Assembly (NCBI GenBank): GCA_017464525.1
Contig: JAFTZM010000022.1
Location: forward strand, 30,562 to 94,561
DNA from: Clostridia bacterium
GTDB taxonomy: Bacteria > Bacillota > Clostridia > Oscillospirales > QAKW01
Length of the DNA stretch: 64,000 bases
Direction of reading: 5' to 3'
In this document: in pieces, positions 58,930 to 60,120 of the stretch
How the letters are laid out: every line of letters starts with the position of its first letter
How positions within the stretch are numbered: position 1 is the stretch's first letter
Program-made: the position numbers and the translations under genes
Notes under the pieces: model-generated
Databases searched by the model: none
What the model saw: only the letters and a program-made list of their open reading frames with translations
Told to the model about the DNA's origin: nothing

Positions 58930-59433
58930 CTAAAGAACCTTTTTCAACACATGATCCAATGGATAAAAGAGCAGCAGCACCGAGGCCGTATTGCCGATGC
59001 AATGGGGGATATCGAAGGGAATTCCGCTCACGATATACCCGATCCCTGCTCCCCATCCGCCGGTAATAAAATAGGGGATAGAGCAGAGGGTGCCGAAGGC
59101 CAGCCCATAGATCCCGGCCACGATGGCCCATAAAATGGGGTGGCTCCATCGTTTTAGGGCTAATACTATCAGTACTAAAATTGGCCAAACATACAAATAG
59201 TTGATCCACCACAGGTGAAATCCGTAGATCAATCCCTCCACCAGTACAAAGACTGCCACCGAAAGCAACGCCTTGGGACCGAAATGCAGGGTGGCCAGAA
59301 TGATCAGAAGTGTTACCAGTTCGATGTTTGGCAGGCCGGCCAGCGCCACCTGCAGCGCAATCATCAGGGCGGCAAATACCGCCAGGGCCGTCAGCTCCCG
59401 GAGCTTAAAAGCCGATGGTGTAGGTCGCTTCAT
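58930..59433 (-). CDS. small 5-6 TM membrane protein, candidate ECF-type vitamin B12 S-component (CbrT/BtuM-like)
   Basis: About 170 aa all-helical membrane protein downstream of a cobalamin riboswitch and DUF4430; conserved His/Cys (PFDIPHCIGN). Confidence 0.4.
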   Translation of the reverse strand: MKRPTPSAFKLRELTALAVFAALMIALQVALAGLPNIELVTLLIILATLHFGPKALLSVAVFVLVEGLIYGFHLWWINYLYVWPILVLIVLALKRWSHPILWAIVAGIYGLAFGTLCSIPYFITGGWGAGIGYIVSGIPFDIPHCIGNTASVLLLFYPLDHVLKKVL

Positions 59434-59797
59434 AGTGCTCCCCGTCGGCAATCACCTGCTGGTTCATCCCCACGCTCAGAGCTTCGCCGTCCTTGCTGAT
59501 GCACCACCAGGATTCATCCTTGCTCCAATCGGCGGTTACGCCGTCGATGGTGTTATACATCCCGTCCTCGGCGTATTCCACCAGCCCAGCCTCCACCAGA
59601 GCGTTGGCCAGATATTCCGCATCGGTGGTCAGCTTGTGCTCCTTGGAGGAGCCGTCCTGCAGGACCACCTCGAATGTCAATGCTTTGCTTCCTTCGTTGG
59701 GCTTGGCAGAAAGGCCCTTCCAAAGAAACACCGCACCGACGATCAGTGCTACCAGAACAATGGCGCCAATAATAATTGGCCATTTTTGTTTCTTCAT
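59405..59797 (-). CDS. DUF4430-domain protein (transcobalamin-like B12-binding accessory)
   Basis: N-terminal TM anchor plus about 100 aa DUF4430-like domain; RBS AAGGAGAA. Confidence 0.55.
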   Translation of the reverse strand: MKKQKWPIIIGAIVLVALIVGAVFLWKGLSAKPNEGSKALTFEVVLQDGSSKEHKLTTDAEYLANALVEAGLVEYAEDGMYNTIDGVTADWSKDESWWCISKDGEALSVGMNQQVIADGEHYEATYTIGF

Positions 59798-59869
59798 GGT
59801 TTTTTCTCCTTATTTATTTTTTTGAAAACCGCTGTAAGCAGCACCCATTTCTGCCCTTTCCGCTGTCTG

Positions 59870-60005
59870 CCGCAGAGGAAATGAGCAAAAACGGCCATCC
59901 ATCGTGGCGGCTGCCCCAGCCTTTGGCATCGATATTCCGGCTTTCAGCCAAGCTGATCACGGTGACGGGATCGTGGGGGATTTTCACCCCGCTTCCTCTT
60001 TGCCA
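59870..60005 (-). ncRNA. cobalamin (B12) riboswitch
   Basis: Minus-strand core AAAGAGGAAGCGGGGUGAAAAUCCCCCACGAUCCCGUCACCGUGA matches the conserved GGGAAG..GGUGA.AAUCCC...CCCG..AC.GUGA core. This was compared with the Tte AdoCbl riboswitch sequence recalled from memory. GCCGCCACGAUGG is B12-box-like. The P1-like pairing AGAGGAA / UUCCUCU bounds the aptamer. Confidence 0.55.
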
Positions 60006-60120
60006 AAGTTGTCTCCGGAAAAAGGATAGCACAGTTTTCTGCAAAAAACAAGTAAAAACCTTGCCATTCCGGCTATTTTATGTCATAATATATTTAAAAA
60101 TTAATTGAAAGGCTTGTAAA

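What the first reader, a model, noticed from the sequence alone, without database searches (positions are those of the whole stretch)
58930..60030. Cobalamin riboswitch controlling a DUF4430 protein plus a small ECF-S-like membrane protein (candidate B12 uptake pair)
On the minus strand upstream of 59797 the sequence AAAGAGGAAGCGGGGUGAAAAUCCCCCACGAUCCCGUCACCGUGA...GCCGCCACGAUGG reproduces the conserved cobalamin-aptamer core (GGUGA.AAUCC, CCCG..AC.GUGA, GCCAC B12-box-like). The aptamer is closed by the AGAGGAA/UUCCUCU pairing. The P1 5' strand AAGAGGAAG itself resembles the downstream SD AAGGAGAA, hinting at SD sequestration. The regulated genes are a TM-anchored DUF4430 protein, a fold related to transcobalamin B12-binding domains, and a 168-aa all-helical membrane protein with a His-Cys pair. 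That resembles the solitary ECF S-components CbrT/BtuM. No ECF A/T components are adjacent.
Basis: partly seen in the sequence, partly recalled or inferred. Interest (0 to 1): 0.55.

Follow-up and report, generated by a model that had tools for sequence, protein, structure and literature searches.

The report
B12 riboswitch controlling cbrS-cbrT uptake genes
A real vitamin-B12-sensing RNA switch sits in front of two genes for a known kind of B12 import module, a cell-surface B12-catching protein plus the B12-specific membrane subunit of an ECF transporter, so this is an ordinary though divergent example whose RNA switch has recently lost one of its side arms.

Summary
Rfam places one cobalamin-clan riboswitch at 59880-60022 (-), matching RF01482 at 56.3 bits (gathering score 50, E 1.2e-7).

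It precedes a two-gene operon that ends in a strong terminator:
- **Gene 1 (59405-59797)** is a membrane-anchored DUF4430 protein. Its model matches PDB 3U7Z and the B12-binding beta domains of intrinsic factor, haptocorrin and transcobalamin.
- **Gene 2 (58930-59433)** has the ECF S-component fold. By sequence it hits only CbrT, the B12 S-component of Lactobacillus delbrueckii ECF-CbrT (6FNP; E 4.6e-17, family profile 3.9e-24).

Lactobacillus carries the same pair as nrdJ-DUF4430-cbrT-pduO, the published cbrS-cbrT. In 80 of 80 species-level Clostridia loci the DUF4430 gene lies immediately upstream of the cbrT-like gene, and 51 have a cobalamin riboswitch in front.

This is a new, divergent member of a known kind.
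- The AGAGGAA/UUCCUCU "P1" does not stand.
- The "B12 box" is misplaced.
- The His-Cys pair is not conserved.
- CbrT is not a solitary S-component.

One curiosity: this lineage alone replaced the 64-nt P6 extension with a UUG loop. The regulated step of the expression platform stays unresolved.

The parts
60023..60051 (-). Inferred promoter: -35 TTGTTT (60051-60046), 17-nt spacer, extended -10 TGcTATCCT (-10 hexamer 60028-60023). Implies a start site near 60016.
   Evidence: Read from the sequence. The -10 aligns with TGTTATAAT / TACTATAAT boxes in the leaders of relatives (A2, A5). Not found by the consensus scan. This is an inference, not a demonstrated promoter.
59880..60022 (-). Cobalamin riboswitch aptamer (Rfam RF01482 AdoCbl, clan CL00101). 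Elements: P3 60008-60001/59928-59921; J3/4 AGAGGAA 59999-59993; P4 with T-loop-like GGGG-UGAAAAU-CCCC 59990-59976; P5/L5 GAU-CCC-GUC 59972-59964; short P6 CAGC-UUG-GCUG 59955-59945; B12-box-like AAAGCCGGAAUAUCGAUGCC 59944-59925; P13 hairpin with L13 CGAUGGA 59904-59898.
   Evidence: cmscan: 56.3 bits against a gathering score of 50, E 1.2e-7, with alignment. The core is conserved with relatives (A5). P3, P6 and P13 show compensatory changes.
59949..59951 (-). Scar of a lineage-specific deletion. UUG replaces the roughly 64-nt P6 peripheral extension (P7-P11) that the nearest relatives keep.
   Evidence: Alignments A2 and A5. In L089 the segment between AUCAGC and GCUGAAAG is 64 nt; in the window it is UUG. 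Relatives with 89, 88, 84 and 81% CbrT identity hit RF00174 at 66-76 bits. The window and L092 (99%) hit RF01482.
59836..59917 (-). Expression-platform three-way junction. Outer helix GGGGCAG (59917-59911) / CUGCUU (59841-59836); P13 inner hairpin 59910-59892; long hairpin 59893-59846 whose loop holds the invariant GGCAGA (59871-59866).
   Evidence: MFE folds of the window and eight relatives give the same junction. On A5, 83.7% of cells are paired against 41-53% for slid partners. Changes on both sides occur in 6 of 8 outer-helix pairs and 14 of 20 long-hairpin pairs. GGCAGA is invariant in 9 of 9 leaders.
59806..59811 (-). Shine-Dalgarno AAGGAG of gene 1, in an A/U-rich stretch. The start codon ATG is at 59797-59795.
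   Evidence: Sequence. Predicted mostly unpaired with or without the aptamer enforced.
59405..59797 (-). cbrS-type gene: 130-aa protein with an N-terminal membrane anchor (helix 6-29) and an extracytoplasmic DUF4430 / transcobalamin-beta-like beta-grasp domain (38-128).
   Evidence: PF14478 at 22.6 bits for this protein; 42 of 42 orthologues match. PDB 3u7z at E 7e-13. The orthologue profile hits the haptocorrin 4kki beta domain at E 2e-4. AF2 pLDDT 90.1. Foldseek: 3u7z at 7.7e-10; IF, HC and TC beta domains at 5e-6 to 5e-4. Hydropathy TM segment 3-32.
58930..59433 (-). cbrT-like gene: 167-aa ECF-transporter S-component of the cobalamin (CbrT) family. Translationally coupled to gene 1 by a 29-nt overlap, with its own GGGGAG SD.
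58893..58928 (-). Intrinsic terminator closing the two-gene operon: AAAAAUGGCUCUGUGC-AAAA-GCACAGGGCCAUUUUU.
   Evidence: Sequence. RNAfold gives -29.9 kcal/mol. The + strand copy was picked up by the terminator scan.

Best explanation
This is a cobalamin-riboswitch-controlled two-gene operon of the cbrS-cbrT type. It encodes the substrate-capture part of an ECF-type vitamin B12 importer.

Shown here:
- The leader folds into a cobalamin aptamer with a four-way junction P3-P6 and an L5/L13 kissing-loop partner.
- The downstream genes are a membrane-anchored transcobalamin-beta-like protein (CbrS, DUF4430) and a CbrT-family S-component.
- The two genes are translationally coupled.
- They are inseparable across Clostridia and Lactobacillus.

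Inferred:
- When B12 is scarce, both proteins are made.
- CbrS, displayed on the outer face of the membrane, captures corrinoid and passes it to CbrT.
- CbrT docks on a shared EcfA-EcfA'-EcfT module encoded elsewhere in the genome, which imports the corrinoid at the cost of ATP.

The aptamer of this lineage has lost the P6 peripheral extension, which may have altered which corrinoid forms it senses. The regulated step, whether translation initiation or transcript elongation and stability, could not be assigned.
For: Riboswitch:
- RF01482 at 56.3 bits against a gathering score of 50, the only Rfam hit in 64 kb.
- Core sequence conserved with orthologous leaders that hit RF00174 at up to 121 bits.
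- Helices covary.

CbrT:
- The only PDB sequence hit is 6FNP chain A (E 4.6e-17; profile 3.9e-24).
- 6FNP is ECF-CbrT, shown experimentally to import cobalamin and cobinamide (PMC5997447).
- Small-xxx-Ala motif in helix 1 (A18, A22) aligned with that of CbrT.

CbrS:
- DUF4430 membership, the 3U7Z match, and fold matches to the B12-binding beta domains of IF, HC and TC.

Linkage:
- The DUF4430 gene lies immediately upstream on the same strand in 80 of 80 loci.
- L. helveticus and L. delbrueckii have nrdJ-DUF4430-cbrT-pduO, the published nrdJ-cbrS-cbrT-pduO cluster.
- In Lactonifactor the pair ends a riboswitch-led cbiMNQO-cbiK operon.
- 51 of 80 loci have a cobalamin riboswitch just upstream.

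ECF genes are usually unlinked: only 6 of 80 loci have any ABC ATPase within 5 kb. That fits a shared-module (group II) S-component.
Against: - No ECF module could be checked in this genome, since only 64 kb is available.
- CbrS function has never been tested. ECF-CbrT transported B12 in E. coli without it (PMC5997447).
- Gene 2 misses the Pfam S-component model PF12822 that Lactobacillus CbrT hits. It is only 33% identical to CbrT.
- The aptamer clears its threshold by only 6 bits. It lacks the P6 extension that every other close relative keeps, so it could be impaired.
- No terminator or SD-sequestering helix was found, so the OFF mechanism is assumed rather than seen.
- 28 of 80 orthologous loci have no riboswitch.
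Confidence: 0.8

Rival explanations
1. The riboswitch is a decaying remnant. Losing the P6 extension abolished ligand sensing, so cbrS-cbrT is now expressed constitutively or is permanently shut.
For: - Only this lineage lacks the extension. Relatives at 81-89% CbrT identity keep it.
- The score is only 6 bits above the RF01482 threshold.
- Per PMC7367189, the P7-P11 extension helps form the adenosyl pocket in class I riboswitches.
Against: - The deletion is clean. P6 is recapped by a 4-bp stem and a UUG loop, and every other core element and the platform junction are intact.
- The short form is kept in four independent assemblies, one with a separate point change.
- Natural short-P6 cobalamin riboswitches are functional: class II and B. 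subtilis yvrC (PMC7367189).
Confidence: 0.15
2. The pair imports a different tetrapyrrole or corrinoid precursor, such as haem as proposed for the L. sakei Lsa1836-1840 system, or cobinamide only, rather than B12.
For: - The L. sakei ECF-like operon with transcobalamin alpha- and beta-like secreted proteins was linked to haem uptake (bioRxiv 10.1101/864751).
- ECF-CbrT also carries cobinamide.
- PDB 3U7Z is titled a putative metal-binding protein.
Against: - A cobalamin riboswitch precedes the pair in 51 of 80 loci.
- The pair is embedded with nrdJ/pduO or cbiMNQO-cbiK, which are B12 or cobalt genes.
- The closest solved relative of gene 2 is the experimentally verified B12 S-component.
Confidence: 0.1
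3. The membrane protein works alone as a solitary, ECF-independent B12 carrier like BtuM, with CbrS as its only partner.
For: - No ECF genes lie in the window, and in 74 of 80 loci there is no ABC ATPase within 5 kb.
Against: - There is no sequence similarity to BtuM (E > 10), and BtuM is the weakest S-component fold match.
- Cys145 is not conserved.
- The helix-1 small-xxx-Ala motif shared with CbrT is retained.
- CbrT needs EcfAA'T (PMC5997447).
- Unlinked S-components are the norm for group II ECF systems (established knowledge, Rodionov 2009).
Confidence: 0.07

Closest known systems
cbrS-cbrT of Lactobacillus delbrueckii / ECF-CbrT (Rodionov 2009 prediction; Santos et al. 2018, PDB 6FNP)
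   Same: - Same gene order: the DUF4430 gene is followed directly by the S-component gene.
- Significant and exclusive sequence similarity of gene 2 to CbrT.
- Same S-component fold.
- B12-related genomic and regulatory context.
   Different: - Only 33% identity to CbrT. The window protein misses Pfam PF12822, which Lactobacillus CbrT hits.
- CbrS proteins are barely alignable pairwise (E 0.02).
- The pair here stands alone behind its own riboswitch instead of sitting between nrdJ and pduO.
- CbrS here has a signal-anchor helix, whereas the Lactobacillus protein has a signal-peptide-like N-terminus.
Bacterial transcobalamin-like SLBB (beta-grasp) proteins predicted to scavenge B12 (Burroughs et al. 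2007, PMC1796856); PDB 3U7Z (RUMGNA_00854)
   Same: - Same domain family and fold.
- Predicted extracytoplasmic location.
- Association with ECF-type transport genes.
[quoted passage not shown]
   Different: - Here it is a single small domain with no alpha/alpha-toroid partner.
- It is paired with an S-component rather than with CbiO/CbiQ genes.
- Binding has never been tested for this subfamily.
L. sakei Lsa1836-1840 ECF-like system with transcobalamin alpha- and beta-like secreted proteins
   Same: An ECF S-component encoded together with a secreted transcobalamin-beta-like protein, which was proposed to hand substrate to the S-component.
   Different: - That operon carries its own A/A'/T genes and an alpha-domain protein, and was linked to haem.
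- The window has only the beta-like protein and the S-component, behind a B12 riboswitch.
Short-P6 cobalamin riboswitches: class II (Cbl-IIa/IIb) and the atypical B. subtilis yvrC riboswitch (PMC7367189)
   Same: - Conserved P3-P6 junction core.
- L5-L13 kissing-loop elements.
- P6 capped by a small hairpin instead of the P7-P11 extension.
   Different: - The window's element is demonstrably derived from a class-I-type ancestor by a recent 64-nt deletion.
- Its ligand selectivity is unknown.
- Its platform is a three-way junction with an invariant GGCAGA loop. I found no description of such a platform.
BtuM (solitary S-component-like B12 carrier)
   Different: - No sequence similarity.
- No conserved cysteine ligand.
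- BtuM works without an ECF module.

Membership tests
Cobalamin riboswitch (Rfam clan CL00101; RF01482 AdoCbl) | Covariance-model score at or above the curated gathering score | tested here: met
   56.3 bits against a gathering score of 50, E 1.2e-7, full-length match 1-149.
Cobalamin riboswitch (Rfam clan CL00101; RF01482 AdoCbl) | Four-way junction P3-P6 with conserved J3/4 GGAA, P4 loop GGUGAAAAUCC and a B12-box-like J6/3 | tested here: met
   Covariance-model alignment. These columns are invariant across nine related leaders. P3 and P6 show compensatory changes.
Cobalamin riboswitch (Rfam clan CL00101; RF01482 AdoCbl) | L5-L13 kissing-loop partner hairpin (P13) downstream | tested here: met
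   The P13 inner stem covaries: GCCA/UGGC, GCUA/UAGC, GUUA/UAAC. L5 AUCC (59971-59968) is complementary to L13 GGAU (59900-59897), read from the sequence. Whether the contact forms was not tested.
Class I cobalamin riboswitch (RF00174, Cbl-I) | Large P6 peripheral extension (P7-P11) | tested here: not met
   The extension is replaced by a UUG loop. The window hits RF01482, not RF00174, unlike 50 orthologous leaders.
Cobalamin riboswitch (any class) | Binds a cobalamin derivative and changes expression | not testable with these tools
   Needs in-line probing, ITC or reporter assays.
CbrT (cobalamin S-component of group II ECF transporters) | Sequence homology to the experimentally characterised CbrT (6FNP) | tested here: met
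   E 4.6e-17 over residues 5-159. The profile of 31 clostridial members gives E 3.9e-24. No other PDB chain hits at E <= 10.
CbrT (cobalamin S-component of group II ECF transporters) | Six-helix S-component fold | tested here: met
CbrT (cobalamin S-component of group II ECF transporters) | Match to the Pfam S-component model PF12822 (ECF_trnsprt), which Lactobacillus CbrT hits | tested here: not met
   No Pfam or NCBIfam family at E <= 0.1. Lactobacillus CbrT homologues carry PF12822. This marks a divergent subfamily and does not contradict homology.
CbrT (cobalamin S-component of group II ECF transporters) | Adjacent cbrS (DUF4430) gene | tested here: met
   Window. 80 of 80 loci. Lactobacillus.
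CbrT (cobalamin S-component of group II ECF transporters) | Helix-1 Ala-x-x-x-Ala motif used by group II S-components to dock on EcfT (significance recalled from the ThiT literature) | tested here: met
   A18-x-x-x-A22 aligns with A-L-L-T-A of CbrT. A22 is invariant and position 18 is always A, S or G.
CbrT (cobalamin S-component of group II ECF transporters) | EcfA-EcfA'-EcfT module present in the genome | not testable with these tools
   Absent from the 64-kb window.
DUF4430 / transcobalamin-like SLBB domain (CbrS) | Pfam PF14478 match | tested here: inconclusive
   The window protein scores 22.6 bits (E 1.4e-4) against a cut-off of 23.8. All 42 aligned orthologues match at E <= 0.01, best 3e-19.
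DUF4430 / transcobalamin-like SLBB domain (CbrS) | Beta-grasp fold shared with the cobalamin-binding beta domain of transcobalamin, intrinsic factor and haptocorrin | tested here: met
   Foldseek: 3u7z at 7.7e-10 (TM 0.87); 2pmv at 4.7e-6; 4kki at 9.8e-6; the TC beta domain 5no0 at 2.6e-5. The orthologue profile hits 4kki residues 376-429 at E 2e-4.
DUF4430 / transcobalamin-like SLBB domain (CbrS) | Extracytoplasmic location | tested here: met
   A single N-terminal hydrophobic helix (residues 3-32 by hydropathy, helix 6-29 in the model) and no lipobox cysteine. This is a prediction only.
BtuM (solitary B12 S-component-like carrier) | Sequence homology and a conserved cobalt-ligating cysteine | tested here: not met

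The most novel reading that the evidence does not exclude
CbrS is an obligatory, membrane-tethered extracellular B12-capture subunit that hands corrinoid to CbrT. ECF-CbrT systems would then use the functional equivalent of a substrate-binding protein, something ECF transporters are defined as lacking.

The strict 80/80 linkage, the translational coupling and the retention from Lactobacillus to Clostridia are compatible with this, and nothing here excludes it.

A second, smaller novelty: this lineage's riboswitch is a recent natural class-I-to-short-P6 conversion that may have changed which corrinoids are sensed.
Probability: 0.4. Interest if true: 0.55.

Novelty: new member of a known kind. 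Interest (0 to 1): 0.3.

Why it matters
On its face this is routine annotation: a hypothetical-protein pair in an uncultured gut or rumen Clostridia genome can be named cbrS-cbrT, a B12-regulated corrinoid uptake module.

Two points go a little further.

- **Unannotated subfamily.** The clostridial CbrT-like family escapes Pfam and NCBIfam. It comprises 899 clusters at 50% identity and 588 or more genomic loci. B12 uptake capacity is therefore likely under-called in Clostridia when cobamide dependence is inferred from annotations.
- **Unstudied partner protein.** The transcobalamin-beta-like partner is invariably coupled to CbrT yet has never been tested experimentally. It is a tractable way to ask whether ECF transporters can use extracellular capture proteins.

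The lineage-specific excision of the P6 extension, with sister leaders retaining it, also offers a natural matched pair for testing how peripheral elements set corrinoid selectivity.

Tried and rejected
Rejected. AGAGGAA is J3/4 in the covariance-model alignment, and UUCCUCU is paired within a covarying hairpin.
- **SD sequestration by the upstream UCCUUUUUCC tract (60026-60017).** It appeared in folds started at 60030-60040. The tract overlaps or lies upstream of the inferred -10 box and start site. Folds from 60016 or 60014 leave the SD open in both states.
- **Intrinsic terminator in the leader.** None on the minus strand between the aptamer and the start codon. P13 followed by U5 is not conserved in relatives. 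The GCUG/CAGC hairpin before GGUUUUC has only 4 bp.
- **Simple P13 versus anti-P13 switch.** Suggested by the duplicated GGGCAG. The ensemble folds and the covariation favour a three-way junction in which both coexist, so the switch logic stays open.
- **Partner for the invariant GGCAGA loop.** No conserved complement in nine leaders.
- **BtuM-like His-Cys ligand idea.** Rejected.
- **Pfam and NCBIfam for gene 2.** No hits.
- **Direct BLASTP of the window CbrS against L. delbrueckii CbrS.** Only E 0.02. The link rests on shared family, fold and gene position.
- **ECF genes nearby.** None.
- **Rodionov 2009 (PMC2612444).** Could not be read.
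Full report
**Observation**

A gathering-threshold scan of the whole 64-kb window against all 4227 Rfam families returned one hit. It is RF01482 (AdoCbl riboswitch, clan CL00101) at 59880-60022 (-), 56.3 bits against a curated 50, E 1.2e-7, covering the full model.

Two ORFs follow it. Gene 1 is 59405-59797, 130 aa, behind an AAGGAG Shine-Dalgarno at 59811-59806. Gene 2 starts at ATG 59433 behind GGGGAG and ends at 58930. 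It is 167 aa and overlaps gene 1 by 29 nt. A -29.9 kcal/mol hairpin with a U-run at 58928-58893 ends the unit.

The flanking genes are unrelated: a divergent cohesin-domain protein, recA, and a convergent DeoR/SorC regulator.

**Gene 2**

Pfam and NCBIfam give nothing. Against all PDB sequences the protein hits one chain only, 6fnp_A, at E 4.6e-17 over residues 5-159. A profile of 31 clostridial relatives hits the same chain at E 3.9e-24 and nothing else at E <= 10.

6FNP is the crystal structure of ECF-CbrT from Lactobacillus delbrueckii, shown experimentally to import cobalamin and cobinamide (PMC5997447). The 182-aa chain is CbrT. A 99%-identical 182-aa protein (P0121) sits between a DUF4430 gene and pduO.

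Helix 1 keeps a small-xxx-Ala motif (A18, A22) aligned with that of CbrT. His144 is invariant, including in CbrT, but the neighbouring Cys145 is not.

The family is sizeable: 899 clusters at 50% identity with E <= 1e-3.

**Gene 1**

The protein scores 22.6 bits on PF14478 (DUF4430), just under the 23.8 cut-off. All 42 aligned orthologues match the family, best E 3e-19. It hits the solved DUF4430 structure 3U7Z at E 7e-13. The orthologue profile reaches the C-terminal beta domain of haptocorrin at E 2e-4.

The model (pLDDT 90.1) has an N-terminal helix (6-29) and a beta-grasp domain (38-128). Foldseek returns 3U7Z at 7.7e-10, then intrinsic factor, haptocorrin and transcobalamin beta domains at 5e-6 to 5e-4, and only then ubiquitin-like folds.

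Burroughs et al. 2007 defined this transcobalamin-like SLBB clade. They predicted that its secreted bacterial members scavenge B12 together with ECF-type components (PMC1796856).

**Linkage**

A scan of one genome per species found 588 or more relatives of gene 2, and 80 loci were fetched. In all 80 a DUF4430 homologue lies immediately upstream on the same strand.

L. helveticus and L. delbrueckii have nrdJ-DUF4430-cbrT-pduO. This is the cluster published as nrdJ-cbrS-cbrT-pduO, so cbrS is the DUF4430 gene.

Rfam scans of the 80 loci found a cobalamin-clan riboswitch just upstream of the pair in 51. Fifty match RF00174 and one (L018) matches RF01689. In Lactonifactor (L074) the pair ends a riboswitch-led cbiM-cbiN-cbiQ-cbiO-cbiK operon. 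The remaining loci follow unrelated genes.

Only 6 of 80 loci have any ABC ATPase within 5 kb. The window has none. This is as expected for an S-component that uses a shared module.

**The riboswitch in detail**

In the covariance-model alignment:
- The junction is closed by CUUUGGCA (60008-60001) pairing with UGCCAAAG (59928-59921).
- AGAGGAA (59999-59993) is the unpaired J3/4.
- GGGG-UGAAAAU-CCCC is P4.
- GAU-CCC-GUC is P5/L5.
- P6 is a short CAGC-UUG-GCUG hairpin.
- AAAGCCGGAAUAUCGAUGCC occupies the B12-box position.
- GCCAC belongs to the P13 hairpin. Its loop, CGAUGGA, can pair (GGAU) with AUCC in L5.

**A lineage-specific deletion**

Alignment with orthologous leaders shows that relatives with 89, 88, 84 and 81% CbrT identity keep a 64-nt P6 extension and hit RF00174 at 66-76 bits. 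In the window, and in a 99%-identical strain from another study, that segment is replaced by UUG. The same short form occurs in two further assemblies.

Short-P6 cobalamin riboswitches are known and functional. Examples are class II and the hybrid B. subtilis yvrC element, which binds several cobalamin forms (PMC7367189). The deletion is a curiosity, not a new class.

**Expression platform**

An extended -10 promoter (TGcTATCCT, 60031-60023) aligned with TGTTATAAT-type boxes in relatives puts the start site near 60016. This is an inference.

Folding from there leaves the SD unpaired with or without the aptamer enforced. No leader terminator is found.

The region 59917-59836 forms a three-way junction of an outer helix, the P13 hairpin and a long hairpin. 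The junction is predicted in all nine related leaders and is supported by compensatory changes. On A5, 83.7% of cells are paired against 41-53% for slid partners, with 6 of 8 and 14 of 20 pairs changed on both sides in the two new helices. The structure was derived from the window sequence, which inflates this somewhat.

The long hairpin's loop, GGCAGA (59871-59866), is invariant and has no conserved partner. How ligand binding is converted into reduced expression therefore remains unassigned. Repression by B12 is inferred from what the family does elsewhere.

**Verdict**

This is a genuine B12 riboswitch in front of a cbrS-cbrT-type corrinoid-capture pair. It is a divergent clostridial member of a system predicted in 2007-2009 and partly characterised in 2018. 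It is ordinary in kind.

Three loose ends remain: the untested role of CbrS, the recent loss of the P6 extension, and the unexplained platform junction.

Noticed in passing
window 59836-59917 (-), loop GGCAGA at 59871-59866: The expression platform of this leader and eight related leaders is a covariation-supported three-way junction. Its long hairpin carries an invariant GGCAGA loop. No conserved complementary sequence was found, and no terminator or SD-sequestering helix either.
   Followed up: partly
window 59949-59951 (-); L086, L089, L090, L003 leaders: The P6 peripheral extension (64 nt in L089) is cleanly replaced by UUG, only in the window's lineage (window, L001, L002, L092). All other close relatives keep it and match RF00174.
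   Followed up: yes
L018:4421-4496: One orthologous cbrS-cbrT locus is preceded by a class II type riboswitch (RF01689, 45.7 bits) instead of RF00174. The same gene pair is thus found behind three different cobalamin riboswitch models.
   Followed up: no
L004:4245-4637 and L005:4330-4634: In two relatives about 300-390 nt separate the riboswitch from the cbrS start, against about 110 nt elsewhere. L004 carries an inserted segment in the leader, and L005 has a second P13-like motif at 4510.
   Followed up: no
L074:644-5510: In Lactonifactor sp. a cobalamin riboswitch heads cbiM-cbiN-cbiQ-cbiO-cbiK followed directly by cbrS-cbrT. This joins cobalt uptake and chelation with corrinoid uptake in one apparent operon.
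   Followed up: partly
L053:3581-9072: In one Ruminococcus MAG the riboswitch-led cbrS-cbrT pair is followed by a THF riboswitch (5083-5184) in front of a 189-aa ORF. An FMN riboswitch lies 4 kb further on. This may be a cluster of vitamin-transporter genes.
   Followed up: no
window 1040-20331 (+): The window spans the chromosomal origin region: mnmE, mnmG, rsmG, then dnaA (11601-12965), dnaN, a recF-like gene, gyrB and gyrA. ORFs at 5666-9145 and 10060-11529 gave no Pfam hit.
   Followed up: partly
window 53814-58843: A PFL-like glycyl-radical enzyme (55861-57846, -) sits next to a Bac_rhamnosid6H-family protein (53814-55859, -) and a divergent DeoR/SorC sugar-binding regulator (57779-58843, +). 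No activating enzyme was looked for.
   Followed up: no
window 20462-24217 (+) and 60121-60732 (+): There is a 1251-aa SLH plus cadherin-like surface protein. A small secreted cohesin-domain protein is transcribed divergently from the riboswitch, and this cohesin gene is syntenic in the close relatives L090 and L092.
   Followed up: no
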